In this document: piece after piece, positions 26,863 through 41,557 of the stretch
How positions within the stretch are numbered: the stretch's first letter is position 1
How the letters are laid out: every line of letters begins with the position of its first letter
Source: Vulcanimicrobiota bacterium
Lineage (GTDB): Bacteria > Vulcanimicrobiota > Xenobia > Xenobiales > JADMJV01
NCBI GenBank assembly: GCA_050250895.1
Contig: JBFWNU010000001.1
Span: 3,379,557-3,443,556, forward strand
Direction: 5' to 3'
DNA length: 64,000 nucleotides
Notes under the pieces: model-generated
What the model was told of the DNA's origin: nothing
The model's database searches: none
The model's input: the letters and a program-made list of their open reading frames with translations, nothing else
Made by a program: the position numbers and the translations under genes

Positions 26863-29578
26863 CGAGAGTCCCCAATATCCTGAGATGGTGTTCCAGGGCC
26901 CTGGGGCGCAGAGACGCCACCACATCGGGCCAGCGAAGTTCCAGATTCAGGGCCAGGGAACGGGTCAGAAACTCGACTCGTTCGTCGACCGTTCCGTAGG
27001 CGGGCTGGGCCACTTCGACGAATTCGCCGCGGACCTGACCGGTGGGGGTAATCTGGGGATAGAAGGCCAGCAGTCGGGCCCCCGTTTCGACCGCCAGACG
27101 GGCGGCGCCCGAGCGAAACACGCGCCTTCGCCCACGAAATGCGACCACCACCCCGTCTTCACCGTCGTCCCAATCCACGGCCACCACTGCCACCCCTGCG
27201 CGGGAAAGTGCTCGTCGAGCCAGGTCCAACTGAATGAGGGACTCGGCGGTGGGATGCTGGGCGGGGTAGCCGAGTTGGCGTCGGGCCATCGTGCCCAGGC
27301 GGCCCACCGCCGCCAGGGGTCGGCCGGGGAAGGCCTCAGGGCCTAGCAGCAGGGGATTGAGCCGCGAATGGACGATGGCTAACACCGTTCCCCCTTCGGG
27401 CTCACTCCAGCCGCAGGCTGTAGTCCACTCGCTAGAGATGGCGTGGCGCCGCCATCGTGACCAGGTGTTGGCCAGCATGAAGCGGGTCAGTAGCGGGCTC
27501 CAGGGTTGCTCCACCTGGCTGACTTCGAGCAGTTGACGCAAAAGACCGAGCTCGGACCTCCACAGCCTGGTTGCCAGCCAGGGCTGGCTCAGCAGCCTGG
27601 TCAGCAGCCACGATCCCGCGGCATAAGGCAGAACCAGTCGACCCCATTGGGGTCCTCGTTCCCGCACCAGAGAAAGCCAGTTTTTGGCGGGCTTGTGTGG
27701 CCGTCCCGGGGGCGGGGCAGAAGGCGGTTGCATCGGGGGTGATTGGCCCATCACTAGAGCCACCAATCCATTCACGGTAGGTTCCTCGGCCAGGGCCTCA
27801 ACAGAAATCTCCACCGCCAATTGAGCCTCGAGACTCCAGATCAGATCCACCAGCGCGAGCGAGTCCAGGCCAACCGTCAGCAGATTAGCGTCGGCGTCCA
27901 GGGATTGACCCGTCTTGCTCTCGAGAACCCTGAGCACGTAGCGGACCAGGCTCTGGGGCGTTCGCTGGCGGGGAAGAGTGGGCTGGGTCGGGCCCCACCC
28001 CCTTAGCAGGTATGCTGCTCGGCAGGCTTGACGACGGAGTTTGCCGCTGGTGGTTACCTCGAGAAAGCCGGCTTCGACCAGGCGAACATCGGCCAGAACC
28101 AACCCGTGATGGTGCCAGATGGCGTGGCGCAAGTCGGCAGCCAGGAGCTCTTGCTGGGGGGGCGACAAAGATGACCGGCGTAGCTCGCCGATGAGCACCG
28201 CCGACTCGGTCGACTCACCGCCAGCCCGGATGCCGACCACGGCGACCCGCCGCAATCGATTTCCGCCAGCCTGCAGGGCTGTGTCTTCGAGGGGAGCGGG
28301 CGGGAAGTTGCGGCCTCCGCAGATGAGCATATCATCTTGACGTCCCACCACGTAAAGTTGACCGTTCTCGCAATAGCCGCGGTCGCCGGTGTGAAGCCAG
28401 CCGTCCTCGATGACCGCCGGTCCGTCCTCGAGATAGCCCGCCATGAGCGAGTGGGACCGGACCAGAATTTCTCCTGGTTGGCCATCCGAAACCATGCCGT
28501 GTTCTCCCCAAATGGCCACCTGGTTGCCCGGCAGGGCCGGACCGCAACTGACGACATCGTGGTCGTTCACCAGCATTCCGCCGTCGCTGATGGTCACCGC
28601 ACAAGTGGCCTCGGCCAGGCCGTAGCCGGCTCGAAAGGTCTCGGGACGAGCGCCGAAGGCTGCAAATTTTTGCCAGAAGTTGCGCATGGTTTCTGCTTGG
28701 ATCGGCTCTCCTCCATTGGCTACGATCCTCAGACTGCTCAGGTCAAGACCCGCCAGGTCCCGGGCTCGTGACCTGGTGGTGGCGTGATGATAGCCCCAGT
28801 TCGGCATGAAGATCATGCTGCCCGAGAATTCGCTGACGGCGCGAAACAGCAGCGAGGGGTTGCGCACCCACCGGGTGGGTGGCAGGGTGACCAGACGACC
28901 CCCGACTAAAAGCGGCATCAACAGATTCACCACCAGTCCAGCGTCGTGGTACCAGGGCATCCACCCTACCGCCACGTCGTCAAGGCCGAACGGAAAGGTG
29001 CGGGCCACGCAGTCGACCTGGCTCAACAGAGCGTGGGCCGAGATGAGCACGCACTTCGAGGCGCCGCTGGTGCCGCTGGTGAACTGCAAGAAGGCCGGCT
29101 CGGTGGCGGCTACCCTTCGGCCTTGAGCCTGCCGCTCGGGCAACCTGGCCGGGTCAAACTCGAGCACCGGGCAGGCTGCCTCAAGCTCGGCCCCGGGGGC
29201 GGCCACGACCGCCCGAATCGAGTATTTCTCCACCCGGGCAGCCAGGGTCGGCCCATAGACATCGGTGCGCCGGTATTGCGAGAGGTAGGGCAGGACAGCG
29301 GGAACCATCCCGGCGTAGAGGGCGCCCAGGAAGGCCAGGATCATGGCCAGGTCGTGCTCGCCCGCCAACAAGACGCGGCTGCCCGGCTCGAGACCGGCCG
29401 CCTCGAACCAGGCTGCGCTCCGGCGCACCCGTTGCAGCAACTGCCGATAGCTGACTTTTTCCTCGAGGTCTGGCTTGGGTAGTGACACCACTCCCCAGCT
29501 TCTGAGATCAGGCTCATCCCAGCGATCCAGAAGGTCGGCCAGGGGCGTGTCACAGTCGCCCCGAAGGCCGTGGGGCAT
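26855..29578 (-). CDS. Fatty acyl-AMP ligase + ACP + LpxL/LPLAT-like acyltransferase tridomain protein
   Basis: FLQFTSGTSG, WMPWYHDAGL, GYGLAEAT, TGDRG, TTSGK; ACP GLDSL; C-terminal VAVD...FRGRRRVFRSGAARLAVETGA. Confidence 0.85.
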   Translation of the reverse strand: MPHGLRGDCDTPLADLLDRWDEPDLRSWGVVSLPKPDLEEKVSYRQLLQRVRRSAAWFEAAGLEPGSRVLLAGEHDLAMILAFLGALYAGMVPAVLPYLSQYRRTDVYGPTLAARVEKYSIRAVVAAPGAELEAACPVLEFDPARLPERQAQGRRVAATEPAFLQFTSGTSGASKCVLISAHALLSQVDCVARTFPFGLDDVAVGWMPWYHDAGLVVNLLMPLLVGGRLVTLPPTRWVRNPSLLFRAVSEFSGSMIFMPNWGYHHATTRSRARDLAGLDLSSLRIVANGGEPIQAETMRNFWQKFAAFGARPETFRAGYGLAEATCAVTISDGGMLVNDHDVVSCGPALPGNQVAIWGEHGMVSDGQPGEILVRSHSLMAGYLEDGPAVIEDGWLHTGDRGYCENGQLYVVGRQDDMLICGGRNFPPAPLEDTALQAGGNRLRRVAVVGIRAGGESTESAVLIGELRRSSLSPPQQELLAADLRHAIWHHHGLVLADVRLVEAGFLEVTTSGKLRRQACRAAYLLRGWGPTQPTLPRQRTPQSLVRYVLRVLESKTGQSLDADANLLTVGLDSLALVDLIWSLEAQLAVEISVEALAEEPTVNGLVALVMGQSPPMQPPSAPPPGRPHKPAKNWLSLVRERGPQWGRLVLPYAAGSWLLTRLLSQPWLATRLWRSELGLLRQLLEVSQVEQPWSPLLTRFMLANTWSRWRRHAISSEWTTACGWSEPEGGTVLAIVHSRLNPLLLGPEAFPGRPLAAVGRLGTMARRQLGYPAQHPTAESLIQLDLARRALSRAGVAVVAVDWDDGEDGVVVAFRGRRRVFRSGAARLAVETGARLLAFYPQITPTGQVRGEFVEVAQPAYGTVDERVEFLTRSLALNLELRWPDVVASLRPRALEHHLRILGTLGA

Positions 29579-31298
29579 GCTGGATTGCCTGGTCACCGTC
29601 TCGTCACGAGATTTTCTAGTGGGTACGATGGTGATGTTGGGATCATTTGTCCGCCACCATCCGGACTTCGTCGGGGAGCTGATGGTGGTCCATGACGATC
29701 TCGACCCAGAGCAGCAAGAATGGTTGCAGCAACGGATTGGAAGGGCGGTCGGCTTCGTCCCTGCCGACCCTTCCCTGGTGGGTGCCACCGCTCTGTTGCG
29801 GCACCGATTGGCGCGATTTGAGCGACGTTATCGTCAGTTCTACTCATTGCAGGCAATTTCACTCGAGGGCTACCGAAAGGTAATCTTCTGCGACAGTGAC
29901 ACCCTTTTCCTTGCGCCCGTCCGGGACCTCTTCCAAGAGTCGTCCGAGTTGTTGGCCTGCCGGGATCGGATGACCATCCTGGGCCAACGCCGCTGCCGTA
30001 GAACCTTCGAGCCGGCTCCGCACAATGCGTTTGAAGCGACCTTCAATGCGGGTTTCATGGTATTCGATGGCAGCCGGCTCGGGGCCCCGGTCTTCGAGTC
30101 GGCTCTACGCTGGCTACGCCCAGAAATTCTGGCTGAGGTGCCGAATCACACCGATCAGTTTGTCCTGAATCATCTTTATGAGGGACGGGTCCACTGGCTC
30201 AGCAATCGATACAATTTCTTGCTGTCGGTGGCCCAAGAGCTTTTTGGCCAGGGGGGCCTCGAGGCGTCGCAGGTGCGAGTGGTTCACTTTGCCGGCAACG
30301 ACGCGACTCCCTGGACCGACTATCAAGCGACACCCCCAACTCGGGTCTTCTATGAGGCCTGGCACCAACTGGCCGACGAGCTGCTTCGGGTCGGCTTGTC
30401 GGCGTATTCCAACCCGCAAGGCCCGGGTGGGAACTACCTGGCCCACGGCCTGGTCTGGCGGTCTGAGGTGCCCCTCGAGGCGCCCCGGACCGGCAGGCCG
30501 CCTGACGTAAGAATTCGTTGGGGAGCGACGCCTGAACCTGATGCCAGTTGGAAGCGACTTCCTTATGGCTGGGCCAAACCCGACCAGTTTCTGGCCATCA
30601 CCCCTGGGGGCGGACGCCTGTGGGTCTCTCGGGGCCAAGAGATTTGTCTCGACCAGCAGTCAGAGGACCCGCAGCTATTCTGGCTCTATTTGGTGGGCCT
30701 GGCTACCGGGGCTCTGTTGCTCGAGCGGGGTGAGTTGGTCCTGCATGGAGATGCCGTGGTGCTCGACGACCGGGCCGTGGTTTTAGGCGGACCGTCAGGT
30801 TGCGGCAAGTCCACGCTGGCCTGTCAGTTGGGCGGCCGTCTGCTTTGCGACGACGTGACGGTGGTGCGCAACAGCCCCGCCGGTCTGACCGTGTTGGCGG
30901 GCCTGGGGCCGCTTAAACCTCGGCTGCTTGGCCTGGCCAAGAACGGCCATCCGGCGCAAGAGGTCTTGAGCGGCCGGCCTGCCCGAGCGGCTATCCCCAT
31001 CGAGCCGGCAGGTTCCCAGTTTCCGCTGGCGGCAGTCTATCTCCTCGACCAGCCCCCGGCCAGGATCCGGGGAGCGCGCCTGGCGGCCCTGGCCAAGACG
31101 CTGTTCTATCGGCCCGAACTGGCCGCCGCCCTGGGGCGCGCTCGGGAGAACTTCGACCACTTGCAGACTCTAGCCAGGACCCGGGTGGTGGGGCTCGAGT
31201 CCGCCGACCCGGCCGAGCAATCCAGGCGTATTCTTGCCGACCTGGAAGGAAAGATTTTCTGTCCCCCCGAGGAAGAGAGCGGCCATGGCCTGGTTTGA
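29577..31298 (+). CDS. GT8 glycosyltransferase fused to an HPr-kinase-like (lasso-peptide kinase type) domain
   Basis: GT8 motifs CDSD, FNAGFMV, DQFVLN, YNF, VHFAG; kinase LHGDAV..GPSGCGKSTL..LLCDDV. Confidence 0.85.
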   Translation: MLDCLVTVSSRDFLVGTMVMLGSFVRHHPDFVGELMVVHDDLDPEQQEWLQQRIGRAVGFVPADPSLVGATALLRHRLARFERRYRQFYSLQAISLEGYRKVIFCDSDTLFLAPVRDLFQESSELLACRDRMTILGQRRCRRTFEPAPHNAFEATFNAGFMVFDGSRLGAPVFESALRWLRPEILAEVPNHTDQFVLNHLYEGRVHWLSNRYNFLLSVAQELFGQGGLEASQVRVVHFAGNDATPWTDYQATPPTRVFYEAWHQLADELLRVGLSAYSNPQGPGGNYLAHGLVWRSEVPLEAPRTGRPPDVRIRWGATPEPDASWKRLPYGWAKPDQFLAITPGGGRLWVSRGQEICLDQQSEDPQLFWLYLVGLATGALLLERGELVLHGDAVVLDDRAVVLGGPSGCGKSTLACQLGGRLLCDDVTVVRNSPAGLTVLAGLGPLKPRLLGLAKNGHPAQEVLSGRPARAAIPIEPAGSQFPLAAVYLLDQPPARIRGARLAALAKTLFYRPELAAALGRARENFDHLQTLARTRVVGLESADPAEQSRRILADLEGKIFCPPEEESGHGLV

Positions 31299-31851
31299 CG
31301 GTCACGTGCGTGACCTGGGTGGGATTGACGAGCAACTGTTAGCACCGTTGCGCCAGCAAGTTTTGGAACGGGCCGACTTCTGGGCCGGAGCCGACCGCCT
31401 AAAGCCCAACCATTTTGCCTGTTTCGAGGGGGCGGCCGAGCATATCGTCTTTCGCTATCCCCAGAGCCCGTCCGACCACCGGCAGTCGGGCGACTTTCCG
31501 TTCTATCGCAAGTGGGCGCCTTTGATCGAACCCATCATCGAAGCCGCCACGGTCAGTTACGGGTTTGCGCGGGGACAGGCCTCGCGCATCATGCTGGCCA
31601 AACTTCGGGCCGGCGGCGAACTGGGGGTGCACGTTGACGCCGCCCCGTCGGCCGAGGTCCCGCACAAGATCCATGTCCCGCTGGTGACCAAGCCCGAAGT
31701 GGTCTTTATCGCCGAAGACGAGGCTTATCACCTGTCCGCTGGGCGGGCCTGGGAGGTCAATAATCGGGTTCTGCATGGTGGGCGCAACCCTTCGACCATC
31801 GACCGGATTCACTTGATTTTTGACTACTTTGACGCCCATGACTTGCACTGA
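31285..31851 (+). CDS. Aspartyl/asparaginyl beta-hydroxylase (Fe/2OG)
   Basis: HVD...IHVPL...NN..LHGGRN..DRIHLIFD. Confidence 0.88.
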   Translation: MAWFDGHVRDLGGIDEQLLAPLRQQVLERADFWAGADRLKPNHFACFEGAAEHIVFRYPQSPSDHRQSGDFPFYRKWAPLIEPIIEAATVSYGFARGQASRIMLAKLRAGGELGVHVDAAPSAEVPHKIHVPLVTKPEVVFIAEDEAYHLSAGRAWEVNNRVLHGGRNPSTIDRIHLIFDYFDAHDLH

Positions 31852-32797
31852 GGCCACTCGGTTCAAAGCTTGTCCCGGCATGACCGCCTGGTTGCTCGAG
31901 CGACAGGTCAGCCTGCTGGTCACCGGCTATGCCAGCGCCCGCCTCTTTCTGGTTGGCAGCCAGCAGGGCCGATTGAGCTTCCAGGAGCGGGACTTCGTGC
32001 CGTGTATGGGGGTGGCTGCCCATCGAGGCCTGATTTACCTCGGCACCCGTACCAGTCTCTGGAGCTTCGACCCCAAGCCCGGATACCTCAAGCCGGTTCG
32101 CTGCTGGGTGACCGACAACGTGCGCATTCACGATGTCGGGGTCGACCGGGTTGGAACTCCCCTGCTGGTCAACACCCTGCACAACTGTCTGGTGACTCCA
32201 CGCTCGCGGGGTATCGGCTTTGAGGTGGTCTGGAAGCCCGACTTCATCAGTTCGACCGAACAGGGTGACCGCTGTCACCTCAACGGCCTGGCCATGCACG
32301 CCGGCCGGGCGTGTTTTGTCACCCTGGTGGCCCGCAGCGACGAGGTCGACGGCTGGCGCCAAAGCAAAGTAGGTGGCGGTTGTGTGGTCGAAGTGTCGAG
32401 CCAGCGGGTCGTGCTCGACGGCCTGACCATGCCCCACTCGCCCAGGCTTTACCGTGATCGTCTGTGGGTGCACGACTCTGGCAGCGGATGGTTGGGCTGG
32501 GTCGACCAGACTCGAGGACGATTCGTTCGCCACGCCTTTGTTCCGGGCTTTCCCAGAGGACTCTGCTTCTGCGGAGACTACGCCCTGGTTGGAGTTTCGA
32601 CCATCCGTTACTTTGGTCAGACCGAGTTTCCCATCGAGGCAGAGTTGACCAGTCGGGAACTCGACGATTTTTGCGGGGTCTGTGTGATCTGTCTCGAGAC
32701 GGGAGCCACGGTGGGGACGCTCTCGTTCGAGGGTCTGGCCGAGGTGTATGACCTGGAAGTGATCCCAGCCCCGCACCTCGAGTTGAGGTGGACTTGA
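31838..32797 (+). CDS. TIGR03032/DUF4915 family protein
   Basis: VNTLHNCL, WKPDFIS, DRCHLNGLA, GLTMPHSPR, PGFPRGL. Confidence 0.88.
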   Translation: MTCTEATRFKACPGMTAWLLERQVSLLVTGYASARLFLVGSQQGRLSFQERDFVPCMGVAAHRGLIYLGTRTSLWSFDPKPGYLKPVRCWVTDNVRIHDVGVDRVGTPLLVNTLHNCLVTPRSRGIGFEVVWKPDFISSTEQGDRCHLNGLAMHAGRACFVTLVARSDEVDGWRQSKVGGGCVVEVSSQRVVLDGLTMPHSPRLYRDRLWVHDSGSGWLGWVDQTRGRFVRHAFVPGFPRGLCFCGDYALVGVSTIRYFGQTEFPIEAELTSRELDDFCGVCVICLETGATVGTLSFEGLAEVYDLEVIPAPHLELRWT

Positions 32798-33342
32798 GCT
32801 GGTTCGAAGGCAAGATCCGTGAGCTGGGTCCGGTCAACTGTACCGAGCTGACGGCGATGGTCGAACGGACCTCGAAGGCGGTCTGGACAGCCCAGAGTTT
32901 TCGGCAAGATCATTATGCGGTGCACCACCAGACCCGCTCGCTCATTTTTCGCTTTCTGACCGGCGATGGGCTCGAGGGTGTAGACCAGCCCCCCTGGCTG
33001 GCCTGGAAGAGCCTGGTCGAGCCGGTCATCGCCCAGGCTGTTGAAAGCTACGGCTACCGGCAGGGGCGATGCGCCCGGATCATGCTGGCCAATCTGCCGG
33101 CAGGCTCGTCGATTTCACCCCATCGCGATGTCGGCGAGTCGTTCGCCCGCACCCATCGGCTGCATGTGCCTTTGCTCACCCATCCCGAGGTGTGCTTCGA
33201 ACTCGACGGCGAGCCCTTTCACCTGGCCCAGGGACATGCTTACGAAATCAACAATCTGCTCTCGCATGGGGTGACCAACCCGGGCCCAGGAGACCGCGTC
33301 CACCTCATCTTCGACTATTACGAGGCCTATGAACAGACCTAA
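32788..33342 (+). CDS. Aspartyl/asparaginyl beta-hydroxylase, second copy
   Basis: ISPHRD..HRLHVPL..EINNLLSHGVTN..DRVHLIFDY. Confidence 0.88.
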   Translation: MDLSWFEGKIRELGPVNCTELTAMVERTSKAVWTAQSFRQDHYAVHHQTRSLIFRFLTGDGLEGVDQPPWLAWKSLVEPVIAQAVESYGYRQGRCARIMLANLPAGSSISPHRDVGESFARTHRLHVPLLTHPEVCFELDGEPFHLAQGHAYEINNLLSHGVTNPGPGDRVHLIFDYYEAYEQT

Positions 33343-33964
33343 GGTTTTTGGAGTAGGCTTGCCCAAGACCGGCACCACTTCTCTGGGGCGCGCTCTCGAG
33401 TGGATGGGCTATCGGGTCTGCGGCGGGCTCGGTCAAAGGGTGCGCGCCCGGGTCGAGAGCGGCGACCCCATCGAGGCCGTGGTGCCAGAGTTGGTCGAGC
33501 GCGAAGTCGAGCGCCATGACGCTTTTCAAGATAATCCCTGGCCGGTGCTTTTTGAAGAGATGGCCCGACGGTTTCCCGATAGTCTTTTCGTCTTGACCCT
33601 GCGTCCCGAGCAGGAATGGCTGGCCAGCTTCGTTCGCCATTTCGGCTCACGGCACTCTCCCTTGCGCGAGTGGATCTTCGGGGCGGGAGCGCCGGAGGGT
33701 AACGAACAGGCCTATCTTGATTTCTTCCGAGTTCACTATCGTCGGGTCCTGGAGCATTTTGCCGACCAATCCCATCGGCTGTTGGTACTTCGCTTATGCG
33801 AGGGAGAAGGCTGGCAACCCTTGTGCCAGTTTCTGGGACAACCCCAGCCGGACCAGCCCTTTCCCCACCTCAACAGCGCTCGGGCCAGGGCCCAGCGCCA
33901 ACTGGATCAGGTGGTCGACGAGCTACGCCGGCAGCGACGTCACCAGTCCGAGTCGTTTTCGTAG
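33329..33964 (+). CDS. Sulfotransferase family protein
   Basis: KVFGVGLPKTGTTSL PAPS-binding loop; GWQPLCQFLG..FPHLN. Confidence 0.88.
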   Translation: MNRPKVFGVGLPKTGTTSLGRALEWMGYRVCGGLGQRVRARVESGDPIEAVVPELVEREVERHDAFQDNPWPVLFEEMARRFPDSLFVLTLRPEQEWLASFVRHFGSRHSPLREWIFGAGAPEGNEQAYLDFFRVHYRRVLEHFADQSHRLLVLRLCEGEGWQPLCQFLGQPQPDQPFPHLNSARARAQRQLDQVVDELRRQRRHQSESFS

Positions 33965-34713
33965 CCGAGTTCGAGCAGCAGGTCTCCAAAGCGTCTTTTG
34001 AACTCGCCTTTGATCTGGCTATTGAAGTGGTCACGCCAGTCTCCGGCGACTCCGCGCCGGTAGTGGTGATGGACGTCGACCTGACCGCGCGGGCGTCCCT
34101 GGCTCTGGGCCTCAAAGCCGTATCGGTCGAGGGCTTGCTCGAGCAATTCCTGGCAGTCGAGGCGCAAGAACGCAAAAGCCTGGTGCAAGACCGGTCGAGG
34201 CGACTCGATCAGGTCTTCAAAACGGAGTCTCAACAAGCGGTCGGACCACCCGCCACACTCGCGCAACTGCTCGAGGTAGACCGAGCTATAGTCAAGCTCG
34301 AGCAGCAGGCCTTGCTCCATGGGGAGGCTCTCGAGGCTTTGTCGGTGCTCGGCCTGGTAGGCGTGCCTCACCGGGTGGGAATAGCGGTGGGAATAGTAGC
34401 ACGAGACCAGCATGTCCCGCGGGTCTCGGATGAATTCACAGCCGCGGTAGTCGACTCTTTCCAATCGTTCGATCACAGCTGCGTGAGCGTTGCGGTGCAA
34501 GACCACATCCGAGCTGTTCAGGGCGCTTTCCCAACGGTGCAGCATTTGCAGCCAGGCGGCGATCGATTGGGGATGGCGGTGGGCGCGGGCGGGCAAGTGC
34601 TTGGGGCGATGCTCCTGAGTTAGGTCGAGGTCCAGGCCACGCGCTACGAACTTGACCACCTCGCGAACAAAGGTCGAGGCGCAACGGTGATGACACAGAA
34701 AGGCCCTGACCAT
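33940..34713 (-). CDS. Sulfotransferase domain protein
   Basis: HHRCAST, RDPRDMLVSCYYSH, RFEDL, HYRRGVAGDWRDHF. Confidence 0.88.
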   Translation of the reverse strand: MVRAFLCHHRCASTFVREVVKFVARGLDLDLTQEHRPKHLPARAHRHPQSIAAWLQMLHRWESALNSSDVVLHRNAHAAVIERLERVDYRGCEFIRDPRDMLVSCYYSHRYSHPVRHAYQAEHRQSLESLPMEQGLLLELDYSSVYLEQLRECGGWSDRLLRLRFEDLIESPRPVLHQAFAFLRLDCQELLEQALDRYGFEAQSQGRPRGQVDVHHHYRRGVAGDWRDHFNSQIKGEFKRRFGDLLLELGYENDSDW

Positions 34714-34714
34714 C

Positions 34715-36349
34715 TCACGCCTTGCCCGCCTCGACCCACTCCAAGAAGCGTCCCACCAGAATGGTCCGGACCAGGACCTTCAGGGCGAGATGGTAGGCCC
34801 CCGCCGAGAAATCGTCGTCGGCCGGAAGATGATGGAACAGGGGGCGAACCTGATCCCAGTCGATGAAGTGGTTGCAGAGTTGGCTGTTAGTCAGTCGCTC
34901 GAGTTCGCCGCGAAGCGCGGGCGCACAGCCGCGCAAACGGGCTTGCCAGCCAACGTCTTGCATGCCCACGGTGGACCGGTCGAGGACCAGGTCGGGCACG
35001 ATCCCTCGCAGGCTGTCGCGCACGGCCCGGCGCTTTTGTCCCTCGCGAGCAAAGAACTCGCGGGGGGCCTGCAGGCAGAACTCCACCATTCGAAGATCGG
35101 TGGTGGGGTCGAGTTCTTCCAGTCCAAAGCGCCCTCGCCAGTAGTTATGCAAAGCACCCACTTTGCCCCGCAGATAGATGCGCAAGAAACGACCGCGGGG
35201 GCTCTGGTCGATGGCTCGCAATCGCTTCTCGAGTTCCAGTTCTCGGGCTCGTTCCGGCCGCAGGGCGAGGTCGGCCTTGCGCACCGCGCTGCCCCGGCGA
35301 AGCCCAAGCGAGGTGGCCAGACGTTTCTTCCAGTTGGTCTTGGGCAGGCCCGAGGAGGAGAAGAGCAGATTGCCTCCCCGACCTCCGATGAGAACGGTCA
35401 AGCCAGTCTCGACGGCCCGGGCCGCGATCTTTTCTCCCCAGCCTCCGAAGAGATGACGGGCGGGCTCGCCGGTGAGAGCGTGCCACTGGTCGTCGATGGC
35501 GGCCAGCGGATCACCGGGATCGCGTACATACTCGATCTTCAGGTTGGGATATTGCACGAGCACAGCGTCGATGAAGGGCTCGTCGCGATAGCTACGCCCA
35601 GGCGGCGCGGGCGCCTGACAATCTTCGGGTGGCAAGTAGGTGAAGCAGGGAAACTTTCGCTCGGGCCTTTGCCGGGCCGCCAGGCACGCTACCGAAGTCG
35701 AGTCCAACCCTCCGCTCAGGTGAAAGCCCACCTGTGTGTCCTGGGTCAGACAGTCCTCGACGGCGCAGGTGAAGAGGTCTCGAAACCGAGACTCGAGTTC
35801 GGGCAATTCCCCTCGACGCAGAGGACGATGCCAACGAAAGTCCGCCGGAGACCAATAGCTCTGGATTCGCGTCTGTTGTCCGTCAAAAAGCAAGAGATGA
35901 CCCGGGGGAAGCTGGCGCAGGTCTTTAAACATAGTGCGGCTGGGCTCGGCTGTGCGCAAACCGCCTCCCACCAGCGCTGCGGCCACCGCCAACGGGTCGA
36001 CCTCGGTCCCCACGCCGGGCAATTGCCGTAACCGGCGGATGTGGTTCGACAGCCAGAGCGGGTCGCCCGAACGATAGTAGAGGGTTCGGCCCCCCAGCGG
36101 TCCTCGGATGGCCACCAGCCTTCGTTCCTCGGTGTTCCAAAAGACGGCGCAAAAGTCATGGGCGACCCGGCTGCATTCGGCCGCCCCTTTGCTCAAGTAG
36201 GCCGCCAACAAGTGCTGCACGCCGCTGGCATCGACGGGAAGGTCAGACCGAAAGCGGGCGTCGGCCACGCCGAGCCAGGGCCCCACGGCTTCGCCGGACC
36301 CGCCGCCGACTGCGACCCGCCCATCGACTTCAAGGCAGAAATCAGCCAA
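34715..36349 (-). CDS. Asparagine-synthetase-like lasso cyclase (C protein)
   Basis: LSGGLDS PP-loop, GGRGGN, DPTTDLRMVEFCL. It lacks the N-terminal catalytic Cys of true AsnB and lies directly downstream of precursor A1. Confidence 0.85.
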   Translation of the reverse strand: MADFCLEVDGRVAVGGGSGEAVGPWLGVADARFRSDLPVDASGVQHLLAAYLSKGAAECSRVAHDFCAVFWNTEERRLVAIRGPLGGRTLYYRSGDPLWLSNHIRRLRQLPGVGTEVDPLAVAAALVGGGLRTAEPSRTMFKDLRQLPPGHLLLFDGQQTRIQSYWSPADFRWHRPLRRGELPELESRFRDLFTCAVEDCLTQDTQVGFHLSGGLDSTSVACLAARQRPERKFPCFTYLPPEDCQAPAPPGRSYRDEPFIDAVLVQYPNLKIEYVRDPGDPLAAIDDQWHALTGEPARHLFGGWGEKIAARAVETGLTVLIGGRGGNLLFSSSGLPKTNWKKRLATSLGLRRGSAVRKADLALRPERARELELEKRLRAIDQSPRGRFLRIYLRGKVGALHNYWRGRFGLEELDPTTDLRMVEFCLQAPREFFAREGQKRRAVRDSLRGIVPDLVLDRSTVGMQDVGWQARLRGCAPALRGELERLTNSQLCNHFIDWDQVRPLFHHLPADDDFSAGAYHLALKVLVRTILVGRFLEWVEAGKA

Positions 36350-36352
36350 TGG

Positions 36353-36493
36353 TCACGACAAGGCGTAAGAAGGAGCAGTCCCCCCGCCGTCGCCCGGATT
36401 GGTATCCATGTTGGTAGCCAGGGTGTTGGAGATATCGAGGCGCGTGAGAACGGGGGCGTTCCACGGTCTGCGCAGGCTGGGCTCATTACTCAT
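36353..36493 (-). CDS. Lasso-type RiPP precursor A1: MSNEPSLRRPWNAPVLTRLDISNTL-ATNMDTNPGDGGGTAPSYALS
   Basis: Manually translated 46-aa ORF with a WxxPxLxxLDIxxT leader; stop lies 3 nt before the cyclase start. Confidence 0.88.
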   Translation of the reverse strand: MSNEPSLRRPWNAPVLTRLDISNTLATNMDTNPGDGGGTAPSYALS

Positions 36494-36567
36494 TGCCAGC
36501 CGTTTCGACGGCCTCAATCGGGGCCCTGCTGAAGGATTAGCGCGACCGATGCCAAAAGCGACAATCG

Positions 36568-36834
36568 ATGCTCTCGCGCAGTAACAACATCGTCGCTAGC
36601 GAACTTGATGGGGACCTCGTCATGATGAGCGTGGATACCGGTAATTACTATTCTCTCGACGAGGTGGGAGCGGCCATCTGGGAGCTGCTCGACCAGCCCC
36701 GTCCGACCGGTGAACTCGTAGAAGGGTTAGTCAAACGCTTCGAGGTCGAGCGCGAGACCTGTCTGGAAGATATCAAGCCCTTTTTGGCCGAACTGTTAGC
36801 CGAGGGGATCTTGATCGAGACCGCTCAAGATTGA
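36568..36834 (+). CDS. PqqD family RiPP recognition element (lasso B1)
   Basis: DGDLVMMSVDTGNYYSLDEVGAAIWELL..FEVERETCLEDI..FLAELLAEGIL. Confidence 0.93.
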   Translation: MLSRSNNIVASELDGDLVMMSVDTGNYYSLDEVGAAIWELLDQPRPTGELVEGLVKRFEVERETCLEDIKPFLAELLAEGILIETAQD

Positions 36835-36965
36835 TAACTGCCCATTCCGCCCCCGCCATCTGGCGGGTTGCCAGCGAGGGTGGTAGAGAGCGTGTTGGCG
36901 ATCTCGAGCCGGGTTAGCCGGGGTGCCCGCCAGGCACGGCGCGGCATTTCTTGTATGTCTGACAT
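36825..36965 (-). CDS. Lasso-type RiPP precursor A2: MSDIQEMPRRAWRAPRLTRLEIANTL-STTLAGNPPDGGGGMGSYQS
   Basis: Manually translated 46-aa ORF, paralogous to A1 (RRxWxAPxLTRL[DE]IxNTL, NPxDGGG, SY..S). Confidence 0.88.
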   Translation of the reverse strand: MSDIQEMPRRAWRAPRLTRLEIANTLSTTLAGNPPDGGGGMGSYQS

Positions 36966-37006
36966 AGCCGAAGCTTCGGCTTCGGGTAGGTCAGTCCTGC
37001 CTCAGA

Positions 37007-37198
37007 TTAGAAGGCGAAGGCGCTGGTCAGATTGGCCACCAGATCGTTGGCCTCGTCGTCGTCCTCGAAGGCCTCGGCGCCCAGGTTGATGTGGTCGCAA
37101 GGGGCGACCGTCCCCGCCACTTCGGGAGCCTGGCCGGCAAAACTCCAGAGTTGATTCTGGTTCTGGAGTTGACTGGTGGAGATGTAAGTGTCTTTCAT
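37007..37198 (-). CDS. Small acidic hypothetical protein
   Basis: 63-aa ORF with a GAGG RBS, co-oriented upstream of A2. Confidence 0.55.
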   Translation of the reverse strand: MKDTYISTSQLQNQNQLWSFAGQAPEVAGTVAPCDHINLGAEAFEDDDEANDLVANLTSAFAF

Positions 37199-37295
37199 CG
37201 TCGTGAAACCTCGCTGCCCTTTGATTCTGCCACAGCAGCCTTAAAGAAACCTTGAGCCCGCCAGGGATCTCGCCTTGACGACGGAAGGTCGGGGC

Positions 37296-38633
37296 ATGAA
37301 GCGCCCTTCACAACTCGAGCAGTTTCTTGAGAGCCAGCAGGAGGTCGGCCAGACCGAGTCCCATGGCGCCTTTACCATCGCCCGAGACGAGGCGCTCAGA
37401 AAACTGGCCTCGTTTCGGCTGCCCTTCGAGCGCGCCTGGGTACTCAAGATCGTGCAGGCGGCGGTGGCCTCGGGGGCGCCTTCGCTCGACATCAAGCAAA
37501 CCTCCACCGATACCGAATTCCACTTCGCCGCTCCCAAGAGCTGGACGCTCGAGCGGTTGGAGGCGGCCTTCTTCAACCCCCAAATGTCAGGAGATCGCGC
37601 CCTGGACCATCTCCTGGCGGGTCTGTGGGGCGCCAGCCTCAACGATGGCCGGCCTTTCCAACTGCTCTGGCCCGGCTGCCCCGAATCGCTGATCTGGTCG
37701 GGCCGCGAGATGACCCGCATCCAGGACCCCGAACCGGTGAGACAAATGCAACTGGTGGTCTCGCACCGGCGCCTCGAGGAAGGCAAGGGGATCTTCGGTA
37801 TTCGCTACATTCAGGCCGCCCAGCGCAACGCCGACATTCTCAAGACGCTGACCCACCGGGCCTTCACCTGTTCCATTCCGCTGCGGGTCGACGCCCGTCG
37901 CATGGACGCCCTGCCGCTCTCTCCCAATCACGGTTATAGCCAGGCCAATCATCCCGTCTGTGTGGGCTGGGCCCCCGGCGGTTCGCTTGTCCTGCCGCCG
38001 GGGACCTTCGCGGGTGTGCTCCCCTCCGAACAGACCCACAAAAAAGAGGCCACGCGCTCGCTATCTTCTCAGGTGGAACGGCCAGCCGTGCCCGACACTA
38101 ACAAGGTTGTGGCCGCCTGGCTGATGACCACGCATTTTGAAGAGGTCAAAAGCGGCAAGAGCAAGACCTGGAAGCTGCGCGACCAGGCCAGCAAGCTCTA
38201 CTGGGTTCATGACGGGGTGATTCTTGGCTCGGAAGAACTCTTTCCCATCGAGAGGTCTGTTTCCATCGGAGTGTTTGCAGACGCGGGCGACCTCAAACTG
38301 GACGTCACCGGCTTCGGCATCATCCACGAAGAGGCGCACGAGGCCCGCAGGAAGCGAGTGCTGCAGACGGCGGCCGCCGCTTTCGAAGCGGTCCCGGTCA
38401 TCTCGCTGCAGGGCCTGGTCGAGGATGCCCAGCAATCGGGTCGCTCGGTAGGCACCGTCATGGCGGTGGGGGGAGTGTTGACGCTGGCCCTATCGCCCTT
38501 GCACTCGTTGATGTTCTTCGCCGGGGCCGCCTTTTCTTATTACACGGCCGGCAACGTCGAGGCCGGCATCGAGAGTGGTTTGCAGACGGCCCTTTCTGAC
38601 CTGCGGGCTCAGTACTTGTCCGAGTGGGGTTAG
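37296..38633 (+). CDS. Hypothetical protein, same N-terminal module family as 7786-10038, with C-terminal TM
   Basis: ESHGAFTIARDEALRKLASFRL..KIVQAAVASGA. Confidence 0.7.
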   Translation: MKRPSQLEQFLESQQEVGQTESHGAFTIARDEALRKLASFRLPFERAWVLKIVQAAVASGAPSLDIKQTSTDTEFHFAAPKSWTLERLEAAFFNPQMSGDRALDHLLAGLWGASLNDGRPFQLLWPGCPESLIWSGREMTRIQDPEPVRQMQLVVSHRRLEEGKGIFGIRYIQAAQRNADILKTLTHRAFTCSIPLRVDARRMDALPLSPNHGYSQANHPVCVGWAPGGSLVLPPGTFAGVLPSEQTHKKEATRSLSSQVERPAVPDTNKVVAAWLMTTHFEEVKSGKSKTWKLRDQASKLYWVHDGVILGSEELFPIERSVSIGVFADAGDLKLDVTGFGIIHEEAHEARRKRVLQTAAAAFEAVPVISLQGLVEDAQQSGRSVGTVMAVGGVLTLALSPLHSLMFFAGAAFSYYTAGNVEAGIESGLQTALSDLRAQYLSEWG

Positions 38634-40867: not shown

Positions 40868-41557
40868 ATGATCATTTCGCCGCACCAACACGCCCACTCC
40901 GGTAACTTCCTGGCTGGCCCGACGGGTGGGCACCACCACGGTCCAGTCGGCGGCTCATCGAGCCAGCCCGGAGACCGCATCCAAATCTCCATGGAGGCTC
41001 AAATGTCGGTAGGCACCGGCGGTCGGCAGTCGGCCAATCCATTGCTGGCTGGGCTGCAGGACAACTTTGGCCCTCAGGGAGCCAATCAGTGCGGCCGCCC
41101 GGGTCAGGGGGGCGCCAGGGGCGCCGAGGCCCGGCTGCGACGCGGACTAGAGCGCTGCCAGCAGGCCCGGAGCCCCAGGCAGCGCCAGGCGGCGGGAACC
41201 GAACTGAGGAACGAGTACCAGAGCTGCAAAGCCCAGCAGGTTCGCCTGAATCCGGGGCTTGAGGTCAAAGTTCTCTTGACCCTGTTGATGATGGGAGCGG
41301 GCGACCAGCAGGGCGGCCAGGCGGGCGGCGGGCAACAGTGCCCCGGGGGCCAGGGCGAGTCGGGCGACCGCGGTGGCTGCCACAAGCCCAAGGACAAAGA
41401 CAAGTGCAAGGACAAGCACCACGACCGCGACCACGACCACGACAAAGGCAAACGCTGCAAAGACAAGCAAAAAGCTGAGCCGAACCGCCTTCGGGAGATC
41501 ACCCACGGGCCCAAGGGCGGTCCGGCCCGGATCGGGGGAACGACCAGGGTCGCCTGA
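40868..41557 (+). CDS. Gly/Gln-rich protein with a Lys/Asp/His/Cys-rich tract
   Basis: GAAGGG RBS; DRIQISMEA motif; CHKPKDKDKCKDKHHDRDHDHDK. Confidence 0.65.
   Translation: MIISPHQHAHSGNFLAGPTGGHHHGPVGGSSSQPGDRIQISMEAQMSVGTGGRQSANPLLAGLQDNFGPQGANQCGRPGQGGARGAEARLRRGLERCQQARSPRQRQAAGTELRNEYQSCKAQQVRLNPGLEVKVLLTLLMMGAGDQQGGQAGGGQQCPGGQGESGDRGGCHKPKDKDKCKDKHHDRDHDHDKGKRCKDKQKAEPNRLREITHGPKGGPARIGGTTRVA

What the first reader, a model, noticed from the sequence alone, without database searches (positions are those of the whole stretch)
36353..36965. Two hidden 46-aa precursor genes flanking the RRE
Both are below the ORF-track cutoff. A1 is MSNEPSLRRPWNAPVLTRLDISNTL|ATNMDTNPGDGGGTAPSYALS and A2 is MSDIQEMPRRAWRAPRLTRLEIANTL|STTLAGNPPDGGGGMGSYQS. 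They share RRxWxAPxLTRL[DE]IxNTL, matching the spacing of the paeninodin leader ([YW]xxPxLxxLDVxxTx, from memory), plus core NPxDGGG and terminal SY-x(1-2)-S. Protein-level conservation with divergent codons supports real coding. A2 is antisense to the RRE gene and overlaps its last 10 nt.
Basis: seen in the sequence. Interest (0 to 1): 0.9.

Follow-up and report, generated by a model that had tools for sequence, protein, structure and literature searches.

The report
Two lasso-peptide precursor genes flanking their chaperone
Two small sister genes on either side of a peptide-binding chaperone gene most likely encode the starting peptides of a knotted "lasso" natural product, in a cluster with many decorating enzymes but no leader-cutting protease.

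Summary
Two 46-codon ORFs lie at 36353-36493(-) and 36825-36965(-). They flank a PqqD-type RRE gene (36568-36834,+), and the second overlaps its 3' end by 10 nt.

They are paralogues under protein-level constraint:
- Genome-wide tblastn gives E 2.8e-9.
- 25 of 45 aligned residues are identical in this frame, against 12/42 and 9/42 in the other frames. pN is 0.39 and pS 0.64.

Both carry the WxxPxL leader motif, a Thr-containing junction, an invariant Asp-Gly-Gly and a C-terminal Ser. The first sits one codon upstream of an Asn-synthase-type lasso cyclase.

They are not unannotated. Both are already on record as called proteins.

The kind is known: kinase-associated, paeninodin-like lasso clusters with several precursors. 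These features are unusual:
- There is no B2 leader peptidase in the window; the genome has only two, both elsewhere.
- The ring-closing Asp is at core position 10 if cleavage follows N-T-L.
- The cyclase is about 60 residues shorter at its N-terminus than its closest relative.
- The tailoring set is large: two sulfotransferases, two Asp/Asn hydroxylase-like proteins, a GT8-kinase fusion and DUF4915.

Close relatives elsewhere are very rare. Expression and product are untested.

The parts
36353..36493 (-). pepA1: 46-aa precursor gene (leader about 25 aa, core about 21 aa, C-terminal Ser). A TTG at 36517 would give a 54-aa form.
   Evidence: NF033524 E 9.6e-4, below cut-off; on record as P0001
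36825..36965 (-). pepA2: 46-aa paralogous precursor gene. Its last 10 nt overlap the 3' end of the RRE gene convergently.
   Evidence: on record as P0029; no curated family hit
36568..36834 (+). B1: stand-alone PqqD-type RiPP recognition element, 88 aa
   Evidence: Pfam PqqD 6.7e-21; NCBIfam lasso_PqqD_Bac 82.3 bits against cut-off 80; closest solved chains are 9x90_B (E 1.6e-13) and TbiB1 5v1u (E 1.7e-12)
34715..36349 (-). C: Asn-synthase-type lasso cyclase. 544 aa from the TTG at 36349; the form on record is 523 aa, which implies a GTG start at 36286. It is about 60 aa shorter at the N-terminus than its closest relative.
   Evidence: Pfam Asn_synthase 1.1e-23; NF033535 1.8e-35 but 122.6 bits against cut-off 525; residue 26 aligns to residue 87 of P0003; relatives are 601-659 aa
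33940..34713 (-). Sulfotransferase (Sulfotransfer_1). It starts 1 nt after the cyclase stop, so it is in the pepA1-C operon.
   Evidence: 3.9e-12; coordinates
33329..33964 (+). Second sulfotransferase (Sulfotransfer_4), last gene of the plus-strand tailoring operon
   Evidence: 1.5e-33
32788..33342 (+). Asp/Asn beta-hydroxylase-family protein
   Evidence: 1.9e-10; paralogue of 31234-31851
31820..32797 (+). DUF4915 / TIGR03032 protein of unknown function. It is found only in this one of the genome's four lasso-type clusters.
   Evidence: (4.7e-89)
31234..31851 (+). Asp/Asn beta-hydroxylase-family protein
   Evidence: 1.7e-6
29475..31298 (+). Fusion of a GT8 glycosyltransferase (residues 38-282) with an HprK-related kinase-like domain (about residues 320-570)
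   Evidence: Glyco_transf_8 4.2e-16; HprK_rel_A 1.2e-6, far below cut-off; tblastn from the kinase-like protein of locus L016, 7.8e-17
36959..36994 (-). RNA hairpin whose 3' arm contains the pepA2 start codon
   Evidence: I3: 16-nt arms, 88% complementary; MFE -19.3 kcal/mol, z -3.19, 2 of 200 shuffles fold as well
37007..37198 (-). 63-aa ORF directly upstream of pepA2 on the same strand. Membership of the cluster is uncertain.
   Evidence: gene-like GC by codon position, 0.61/0.39/0.78; no family hit; no usable Atlas hit

Best explanation
pepA1 and pepA2 are two real, paralogous precursor genes of a kinase-associated (paeninodin-like) lasso-peptide pathway.

Shown by sequence analysis:
- Both are intact ORFs conserved at the protein level.
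- Both have a W-x-x-P-x-L leader, a Thr-containing junction, an invariant Asp-Gly-Gly and a C-terminal Ser.
- They flank a lasso-type RRE, and pepA1 heads an operon with the cyclase and a sulfotransferase.

Inferred:
- The RRE binds the WxxPxL leader of both peptides and presents them to the processing enzymes.
- The leader is removed by a B2 peptidase encoded elsewhere in the genome. The candidates are the orphan copy at C1:933526-933906 and the copy in the contig-9 cluster. Another protease could also do it.
- The cyclase joins the new N-terminus to the conserved Asp. The ring would have 10 residues if cleavage follows N-T-L, and 7 if it follows the second Thr-x three residues later.
- The C-terminal Ser is phosphorylated by the HprK-like domain, and the fused GT8 may add a sugar, as in pseudomycoidin.
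- The two sulfotransferases and the two hydroxylase-like proteins decorate the conserved Ser-Tyr and Asn/Asp positions.
For: ORFs and overlap.

Paralogy and constraint:
- tblastn E 2.8e-9 genome-wide.
- 14 of 26 identical columns use different codons.
- 25/45 identical residues in this frame against 12/42 and 9/42 in the others; pN 0.39 against pS 0.64.
- ORFs overlapping on other frames or strands have no family hit (0 of 4).

Context:
- The RRE scores above the curated lasso cut-off.
- The cyclase's best family is the lasso cyclase model.
- A sulfotransferase is translationally adjacent to the cyclase.
- A kinase-like domain lies 5 kb away.

Family resemblance:
- pepA1 hits the paeninodin precursor model at E 9.6e-4.
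- W, P, L, I, D-G-G and the terminal S are invariant across 5 related peptides.
- The leader regex matches only 14 short frames in the whole genome. Four of them lie beside an RRE or cyclase.

Other genomes: small ORFs with the same W-x-x-P leader and a terminal Ser lie just upstream of, or divergent from, lasso cyclases in 4 of 80 fetched loci: L020 (E 4e-4), L019 (E 6.5e-4), L023 (0.038) and L018 (0.085).

Synteny: a paralogous cluster 31 kb beyond the window has its 44-aa precursor convergent with the RRE operon, as pepA2 is here.

Complex prediction of RRE + pepA2, verdict weak support:
- Score 0.43 in each of 3 runs; best of 3 controls 0.00.
- The runs agree in at least 95% of contacts, and the partner's pLDDT is at least 53.
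- The mark was reached by 51 of 78 solved complexes and 2 of 108 mismatched pairs.
- At 0.60 or under it was reached by only 5 of those 78 solved complexes and by all 4 mismatches that passed (of 180).
- Like complexes are solved (5v1v, 9x90), so the pass may reflect likeness only.

Literature:
- Trp-type leaders mark paeninodin-like precursors, and the RRE motif is [Y/W]xxPx[L/V/I/A/F/Y] (PMC13381572, sections 4, 6 and 9 read).
- HprK-like kinases phosphorylate the C-terminal Ser, and putative sulfotransferase genes have been seen in such clusters (PMC8498205, passages).
- Pseudomycoidin is phospho-glycosylated and can be made without a leader peptidase (PMC6993621, abstract).
Against: - There is no B2 peptidase in the window. 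The genome has only two over the cut-off, both elsewhere.
- No exporter was seen between 26.8 and 45.1 kb.
- With the canonical Thr(-2) cut after N-T-L, the shared Asp is at position 10. The stated range is 7-9 (PMC9266682 and PMC5067487, passages).
- The cyclase lacks about 60 N-terminal residues relative to its closest relative. It scores far below the curated lasso-cyclase cut-off, 122.6 against 525 bits.
- pepA2 hits no curated precursor family even at E <= 10.
- Relatives outside this genome are very few:
  - The exhaustive profile search of 1.84 billion representatives gave 6 hits. Three are clusters of this genome's own three peptides (one also holds close variants from other assemblies), one is a single 46-aa peptide (P0032, E 6e-5) whose context could not be fetched, and two are LRR false positives.
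  - Among 400 other genomes of the phylum, 2 gave weak hits. One looks like chance and one is a 25-aa peptide without a cyclase.
  - Pattern scans of species genomes and a metagenome scan found no close relative.
- No sigma-70-like promoter or intrinsic terminator was found.
- The pepA2 start codon is buried in a stable hairpin.
- There is no expression evidence of any kind.
Confidence: 0.7

Rival explanations
1. Both peptides are real RiPP precursors recognised by the RRE, but the mature product is not a threaded lasso. The peptides stay linear, or are closed in another way. They are phosphorylated, glycosylated, sulfated and hydroxylated, as in the linear polyphosphorylated peptides that share RRE, kinase and leader motif with paeninodin-like systems.
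For: - No B2 peptidase in the cluster.
- The cyclase is N-terminally short and far below the curated cut-off.
- The acceptor Asp is at position 10 under the canonical cut (sequence).
- A genome of the same family carries kinase + RRE + a 25-aa WxxP peptide ending in Ser, with no cyclase within 18 kb by tblastn.
- LPP clusters are described in PMC13381572 (section 6 read).
Against: - A full-length Asn_synthase domain with an intact SGGLDS motif follows pepA1 directly in the same operon.
- LPP precursors carry YxxP and use an SpI-type peptidase (PMC13381572, sections 6 and 9). No such peptidase domain was found among the 28 distinct ORFs scanned between 26.8 and 45.1 kb.
- Asp-Gly-Gly is invariant in all 5 related peptides, as expected of a ring acceptor.
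Confidence: 0.15
2. The locus is a decaying or silent duplicate. pepA2, and perhaps the whole B2-less cluster, is no longer expressed or processed and persists only because the duplication is not old enough to have broken it.
For: - The genome holds four paralogous kinase/sulfotransferase lasso-type clusters, and only one has a B2 gene.
- The pepA2 start codon is sequestered in a hairpin.
- pepA2 runs convergently into the RRE gene.
- The cyclase is truncated.
- No orthologous cluster was found in 60 relatives.
Against: - Synonymous sites are near saturation (pS 0.64) while the leader motif, Asp-Gly-Gly, Ser-Tyr and the terminal Ser are kept. Both frames are intact. That is hard to reconcile with neutral decay.
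- All neighbouring genes are intact with gene-like GC by codon position.
Confidence: 0.1
3. The two ORFs are chance open frames in GC-rich DNA and encode nothing.
For: - They are short.
- No Shine-Dalgarno-like sequence lies at the usual distance (sequence).
- GC by codon position is not clearly gene-like: 0.51/0.60/0.72 and 0.62/0.62/0.64.
Against: - Mutual tblastn E 2.8e-9 in the whole genome.
- The conservation is frame-specific.
- A third paralogue lies beside another RRE and cyclase.
- Position beside the RRE and cyclase.
Confidence: 0.02

Closest known systems
Paeninodin-like (kinase-associated) lasso peptide precursors and clusters (PadeA/B1/B2/C/K)
   Same: - Trp-type WxxPxL leader, Thr near the junction and a C-terminal Ser.
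- Stand-alone PqqD-type B1 RRE above the curated NCBIfam cut-off.
- Asn-synthase-type cyclase.
- HprK-related kinase-like domain in the cluster.
- Putative sulfotransferase genes have been noted in such clusters (PMC8498205 passages; PMC13381572 section 9).
   Different: - No B2 peptidase and no exporter nearby.
- pepA1 scores below, and pepA2 does not hit, the curated paeninodin precursor model.
- The shared Asp is at core position 10 under the canonical cut.
- The kinase domain is fused to a GT8 glycosyltransferase.
- Extra genes: two Asp/Asn hydroxylase-like proteins, DUF4915 and a second sulfotransferase.
- The RRE lies on the opposite strand between the two precursor genes.
Pseudomycoidin (Bacillus pseudomycoides psm cluster)
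   Same: A kinase-associated lasso peptide whose terminal residue is phosphorylated and then glycosylated. In vivo it can be made without leader and leader peptidase (PMC6993621, abstract). This is a precedent for a cluster that works without a local B2 and for a sugar-adding enzyme next to the kinase.
   Different: According to the review (PMC8498205, passages), glycosylation there is attributed to a nucleotidyltransferase, not a GT8. No sequence comparison with psm genes was made here.
Linear polyphosphorylated peptides (LPP; Popov et al. 2026, PMC13381572)
   Same: Discrete RRE, HprK-like kinase, a leader motif of the same [Y/W]xxP type, one to three precursor genes per cluster, and co-occurrence with paeninodin-like clusters.
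   Different: LPP leaders carry Tyr, the clusters lack a cyclase, and they use an SpI-type signal peptidase. Here the leaders carry Trp, a cyclase follows pepA1, and no SpI-type peptidase was seen.
Multi-precursor lasso clusters (for example caulosegnins I-III from one cluster)
   Same: Several precursor genes with similar leaders and divergent cores share one set of enzymes. This is stated in PMC13381572 section 4; the caulosegnin title was seen in the reference list of PMC8498205.
   Different: In this window the two precursor genes are not in tandem. The RRE gene separates them on the opposite strand. Caulosegnin gene order was not checked here.

Membership tests
Lasso peptide precursor (general) | Short ORF adjacent to a lasso cyclase and an RRE | tested here: met
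   The pepA1 stop lies one codon before the cyclase TTG. The RRE lies 74 nt from the pepA1 start, and pepA2 overlaps the RRE 3' end.
Lasso peptide precursor (general) | Leader motif [Y/W]xxPx[L/V/I/A/F/Y] recognised by discrete RREs (PMC13381572 section 4) | tested here: met
   W-N-A-P-V-L in pepA1 and W-R-A-P-R-L in pepA2.
Lasso peptide precursor (general) | Thr at the penultimate leader position (PMC10368454, abstract) | tested here: inconclusive
   Both peptides have N-T-L, and three residues later a second Thr-x (A-T-N and S-T-T). Either could be the junction, and the cleavage site is unknown.
Lasso peptide precursor (general) | Asp/Glu acceptor at core position 7-9 (PMC9266682 and PMC5067487, passages) | tested here: inconclusive
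   The invariant Asp is at position 10 after an N-T-L cut, at 9 after a cut one residue later, and at 7 after the second Thr-x. pepA1 has an extra Asp, at position 5 counted from the N-T-L cut.
Lasso peptide biosynthetic cluster | B2 (transglutaminase-like) leader peptidase in the cluster | tested here: not met
   PF13471 and NF033537 searches of the whole genome give only C1:933526-933906 and C9:232913-233287 over the cut-off. Neither lies in the window, which is C1:3379557-3443556.
Lasso peptide biosynthetic cluster | Threaded lariat topology of the product | not testable with these tools
   Needs MS/MS, NMR or protease and heat tests.
NCBIfam NF033524 paeninodin family lasso peptide | HMM score at or above the 27-bit cut-off | tested here: not met
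   pepA1 scores 18.8 bits (E 9.6e-4). pepA2 has no hit at E <= 10.
Paeninodin-like (kinase-associated) lasso systems | C-terminal Ser in the precursor, plus an HprK-like kinase in the cluster | tested here: met
   Both peptides end in Ser. The kinase-like domain at about 30432-31175 is matched by the L016 kinase-like protein (7.8e-17) and by HprK_rel_A (1.2e-6, far below its cut-off). Kinase activity is untested.
NCBIfam NF033536 lasso PqqD-family chaperone (B1) | HMM score at or above the 80-bit cut-off | tested here: met
   82.3 bits.
NCBIfam NF033535 lasso isopeptide-forming cyclase | HMM score at or above the 525-bit cut-off | tested here: not met
   122.6 bits (E 1.8e-35). It is the best-scoring family but far below the cut-off. 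The Pfam Asn_synthase cut-off is met.
RRE-leader pair | Physical binding of the leader to the RRE | tested here: inconclusive
   The complex prediction gave weak support only: 0.43 against a best control of 0.00. Like complexes are solved, so the score may reflect likeness.

The most novel reading that the evidence does not exclude
This cluster, and its two B2-less sisters in the same genome, make lasso peptides by a route that needs no dedicated local leader peptidase, using an N-terminally minimal cyclase. The ring size lies outside or at the edge of the known 7-9 range: 10 residues, or 7 with Met or Leu at position 1. The product carries a combination of O-sulfation (conserved Ser-Tyr), beta-hydroxylation and phospho-glycosylation. 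I found no paper describing a characterised sulfated lasso peptide (18 papers listed; passages read in one review only). The RRE gene, embedded antisense between the two precursor genes and overlapping pepA2, would couple chaperone and precursor levels through convergent transcription.
Probability: 0.15. Interest if true: 0.7.

Novelty: new variant of a known kind. Interest (0 to 1): 0.4.

Why it matters
The two genes fix the substrates of an otherwise orphan tailoring cluster. Knowing both core sequences makes the chemistry directly testable by heterologous expression and mass spectrometry. The open questions are which Asp closes the ring, whether Tyr or Ser is sulfated, whether Asn or Asp is hydroxylated, and whether the terminal Ser is phospho-glycosylated.

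The locus also gives a clean case for asking how lasso clusters without a B2 peptidase remove the leader. Three of the four related clusters in this genome lack one.

As a gene-finding result it is ordinary. Multi-precursor, kinase-associated lasso clusters are known, and both ORFs are already called in the public annotation.

Tried and rejected
- Sequencing runs: the look-up of sequencing runs on 34000-37300 listed none (no RNA holder listed).
- Cyclase as a single query in genome contigs: 47 pattern matches, none confirmed.
- Cyclase in 60 relatives: only two distant Asn-synthase-like matches (34% identity, open frames of 896 and 882 aa).
- Word-based search with pepA1: found only itself.
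- Two-peptide alignment: 285 pattern matches, none confirmed.
- P0034 as query: 472 pattern matches, none confirmed.
- Metagenome scan with a cyclase alignment: 8 loci at 26-40% identity, none with a Trp-type peptide. One (L108) has a Tyr-type lasso precursor.
- Remnant of the missing cyclase N-terminus upstream of the gene: none found.
- Promoter and terminator scan of 36000-37500: 0 and 0.
- Inversion hypothesis for the RRE: no flanking inverted repeats of note.
- Protein Atlas: the nearest named clusters for pepA1 are lasso-leader families at 0.81, a lead only. The 63-aa ORF gave no usable hit.
- G138 hit of the phylum search: on inspection it lacks the Pro and looks like chance.
- The JBC paeninodin paper (PMC4919450) is not held, so paeninodin's own sequence and cluster details were not checked.
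- Supplements of PMC13381572 and of the other papers were not seen. They may list clusters like this one.
Full report
OBSERVATION

- pepA1 runs from the ATG at 36493 to the stop at 36353 on the minus strand. A TTG at 36517 would add 8 residues.
- pepA2 runs from 36965 to 36825 on the minus strand.
- Between them, on the plus strand, lies an 88-aa gene at 36568-36834. Pfam calls it PqqD (6.7e-21). NCBIfam places it above the curated cut-off of the lasso PqqD-family chaperone model, 82.3 against 80 bits.
- pepA2 and this RRE gene converge and share 10 nt, 36825-36834.
- The pepA1 stop is followed, one codon later and in the same frame, by the TTG of a 544-aa Asn-synthase-type protein at 34715-36349. 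Its best NCBIfam match is the lasso cyclase model (1.8e-35), though it scores far below that model's cut-off.
- A Sulfotransfer_1 gene starts 1 nt after the cyclase stop.

IS IT MORE THAN CHANCE?

Yes.
- In a six-frame tblastn of the whole 9.5-Mb genome, the two peptides find each other at E 2.8e-9 (61% identity over 36 residues). The next hit (E 0.020) is a third paralogue beside another RRE and cyclase. Everything else is at E >= 0.05.
- Of the 26 identical alignment columns (stop included), 14 use different codons, including switches between the two Ser codon families.
- Read in the proposed frame, the two genes share 25 of 45 residues. Read in the other two frames, they share 12 of 42 and 9 of 42.
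- Nei-Gojobori counts give pS 0.64 and pN 0.39. Synonymous sites are therefore near saturation while the protein is kept.
- The four ORFs that overlap them on other frames or strands have no Pfam hit at E <= 1.
- A regex for the leader motif matches 14 short frames in the entire six-frame translation. Three are pepA1, pepA2 and the third paralogue. A fourth lies between the RRE and B2 genes of a cluster on contig 9.

NOT HIDDEN IN THE PUBLIC RECORD

The exhaustive and exact look-ups show that both 46-aa proteins are already on record. They are called proteins from an NCBI source, on a contig of the window's contig length.

WHAT THE PEPTIDES LOOK LIKE

- Both leaders carry W-x-x-P-x-L. Popov et al. 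2026 (PMC13381572; sections 4, 6 and 9 read) give [Y/W]xxPx[L/V/I/A/F/Y] as the motif bound by discrete lasso RREs. They report that Trp at the first position is nearly invariant in paeninodin-like precursors.
- pepA1 weakly hits the NCBIfam paeninodin precursor model (E 9.6e-4, 18.8 bits, cut-off 27). pepA2 does not, even at E <= 10.
- Across five related peptides (pepA1, pepA2, the third paralogue pepA3, its close variant P0030 from another assembly, and P0032), the invariant positions are the initial Met, W, P, L, I, Asp-Gly-Gly and the terminal Ser.
- The invariant Asp is the natural candidate for the ring acceptor.

Its position depends on the cut site.
- After N-T-L (Thr at -2, the canonical rule according to the abstract of PMC10368454), it is residue 10.
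- After the second Thr-x, three residues later (A-T-N in pepA1, S-T-T in pepA2), it is residue 7, with Met or Leu as residue 1.
- Reviews give 7-9 as the range (PMC9266682 and PMC5067487, passages).

I cannot decide between these. It is one of the two features that a lasso specialist would want resolved.

THE CLUSTER

A plus-strand operon upstream encodes these proteins:
- a GT8 glycosyltransferase fused to an HprK-related kinase-like domain (29475-31298);
- two Asp/Asn beta-hydroxylase-family proteins (31234-31851 and 32788-33342);
- a DUF4915/TIGR03032 protein (31820-32797);
- a Sulfotransfer_4 protein (33329-33964).

HprK-like kinases of paeninodin-type clusters phosphorylate the C-terminal Ser of the linear precursor. 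Putative sulfotransferase genes have been noted in such clusters without characterisation (PMC8498205, passages). Pseudomycoidin is phosphorylated and then glycosylated on its terminal residue (PMC6993621, abstract). The conserved Ser-Tyr two to three residues before the terminal Ser is an obvious candidate for sulfation. That is inference only.

WHAT IS MISSING

- No B2 leader peptidase lies in the window. Whole-genome six-frame searches with PF13471 and NF033537 give just two copies over the cut-off, at C1:933526-933906 and C9:232913-233287.
- No exporter was seen among the ORFs scanned between 26.8 and 45.1 kb.
- The cyclase starts about 60 residues later than its closest relative. Its residue 26 aligns to residue 87 of P0003, at 36% identity. 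No remnant of the missing part lies upstream.

The genome holds four paralogous clusters of this kinase/sulfotransferase type:
- the window;
- L016 at 2.16 Mb;
- L103, 31 kb beyond the window's end;
- L104 on contig 9.

Only the contig-9 cluster has a B2 gene. Each has a Trp-type candidate precursor ending in Ser. In L103 the precursor gene converges on the RRE operon, as pepA2 does here. Earlier notes of this scan on L103 reached the same reading of a B2-less, heavily tailored lasso cluster. I found its 44-aa precursor independently.

RELATIVES ELSEWHERE

They are few.
- The profile of three peptides, searched exhaustively against 1.84 billion representatives, gave 6 hits at E <= 0.001. Three are the clusters of this genome's own three peptides; the third of these also holds close variants from other assemblies, one labelled as an Eremiobacteraeota MAG. 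One is a 46-aa peptide with the same layout (P0032, E 6e-5). Two are leucine-rich-repeat proteins that match by a repeated W-x-T-P-x-L-K-E-L-D motif and are false positives.
- Among 400 other genomes of the phylum, 2 gave weak hits. One looks like chance. The other is a 25-aa WxxP peptide ending in Ser, next to a kinase-like gene and an RRE, with no cyclase within 18 kb.
- Pattern scans of species genomes and a metagenome scan found no close relative.
- More distant support comes from 80 loci fetched with a related cyclase. In four of them, small ORFs with a W-x-x-P leader and a terminal Ser lie 0.2-0.4 kb from the cyclase gene: upstream on the same strand in three, divergent in one (L020, L019, L023, L018).

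RRE BINDING

- The one complex job (RRE + pepA2, no alignments) gave a verdict of weak support: score 0.43 in each of three runs, against 0.00 for the best of three controls.
- The runs agree in at least 95% of contacts, and the partner's pLDDT is at least 53.
- By the tool's calibration, the mark was reached by 51 of 78 solved complexes and 2 of 108 mismatched pairs. At 0.60 or under, it was reached by only 5 of those 78 solved complexes and by all 4 mismatches that passed (of 180).
- RRE-leader complexes of this family are solved: TbiB1 5v1u/5v1v, and 9x90, which match this RRE at E 1.7e-12 and 1.6e-13. The score may therefore reflect likeness rather than this pair's binding.

MECHANISM AND RIVALS

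My best reading (0.7) has three parts.
- There are two functional paralogous precursors of a paeninodin-like lasso pathway.
- The leader is removed in trans.
- The ring is closed on the conserved Asp, and the tail is decorated at its C-terminus.

The main rival (0.15) keeps the peptides as real RiPP precursors but makes the product linear or otherwise non-lasso. It points to the absent B2, the short cyclase, the off-range Asp, and the cyclase-less kinase-RRE-peptide locus in a related genome. A decaying duplicate (0.1) is disfavoured by the pattern of substitutions. Chance ORFs (0.02) are contradicted.

NOVELTY AND INTEREST

The kind is known: a multi-precursor, kinase-associated lasso cluster. 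This example is a new variant because of the missing B2, the ring-position problem, the short cyclase, the tailoring set and the antisense-embedded RRE. I searched the paper library for 'lasso peptide' with 'sulfotransferase' (18 papers listed, passages read in one review). I found only the statement that such genes exist, and no characterised sulfated lasso peptide. Supplements could not be seen. I score interest at 0.4. The finding is correct and gives a useful handle for natural-product work, but it is not a surprise to the field, and part of it was already noted by this scan on the sister cluster.

Noticed in passing
L016:7926-8075 (-) and L016:4646-11897 (= G000 C1:2160645-2167896): A third paralogue, pepA3 (49 aa), has the same WxxP leader, a Cys-rich core and a C-terminal Ser. 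It sits directly upstream of a YcaO cyclodehydratase (1.2e-85) and a ThcOx/nitroreductase-type dehydrogenase. Divergent from these are a kinase-like gene, a sulfotransferase, a PqqD RRE and a lasso-type cyclase, again with no B2. This looks like a lasso/azol(in)e hybrid cluster. A peptide with the same core, apart from one residue, is on record from a MAG labelled Eremiobacteraeota (P0034).
   Followed up: partly
L001:1306-1836 (+) (= G000 C1:933382-933912): An orphan lasso B2-type peptidase gene (NF033537, 97.1 bits) sits after a GspF-like gene, far from any cyclase. It is a candidate trans-acting leader peptidase for the three B2-less clusters.
   Followed up: partly
L104:8556-8837 (+) (G000 C9): The only cluster in the genome with a B2 gene has the order kinase, kinase, sulfotransferase, RRE, candidate precursor, B2, cyclase. 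It holds an unusually long (about 93 aa) candidate precursor with a W-E-N-P leader and a C-terminal Ser, between the RRE and B2 genes.
   Followed up: partly
window 36959-36994 (-), and 36499-36514 (-): A stable hairpin (-19.3 kcal/mol, z -3.19) buries the pepA2 start codon. A smaller hairpin with the same CGAA loop ends 6 nt before the pepA1 start codon, but it is not significant on its own (z +1.2 in 61 nt). This may be a shared regulatory RNA element of the duplicated genes.
   Followed up: partly
window 36347-36355 (-): The pepA1 stop codon (TGA) and the cyclase TTG start are in the same reading frame, separated by a single codon. The same frame is expected by chance one time in three. The cyclase form on record starts 21 codons further down.
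   Followed up: partly
window 37007-37198 (-): A 63-aa acidic ORF lies 41 nt upstream of pepA2 on the same strand. Its GC by codon position is gene-like (0.61/0.39/0.78). It has no family hit, no paralogue in the genome and no usable Atlas hit. It could be co-transcribed with pepA2.
   Followed up: partly
L102:7456-8812 (+) (G007, same family, other genus): This locus has a kinase-like gene, a PqqD RRE and a 25-aa WxxP peptide ending in Ser, in a row, with no cyclase within 18 kb by tblastn. It resembles the linear polyphosphorylated peptide type more than a lasso cluster.
   Followed up: partly
window 37275-38633 (+): This 452-aa ORF has no Pfam or NCBIfam hit, but tblastn gives more than 30 matches across the genome (best 47% identity on contig 5). 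It belongs to a large lineage-specific paralogue family of unknown function.
   Followed up: no
window 41499-45140 (-): A 1213-aa fusion protein combines CheB methylesterase, CheR methyltransferase, PAS and GAF domains.
   Followed up: no
window 26855-29788 (-): A 977-aa protein carries AMP-binding and phosphopantetheine-binding domains and a weak acyltransferase-like tail. It borders the tailoring operon. Whether it belongs to the cluster is unknown.
   Followed up: no
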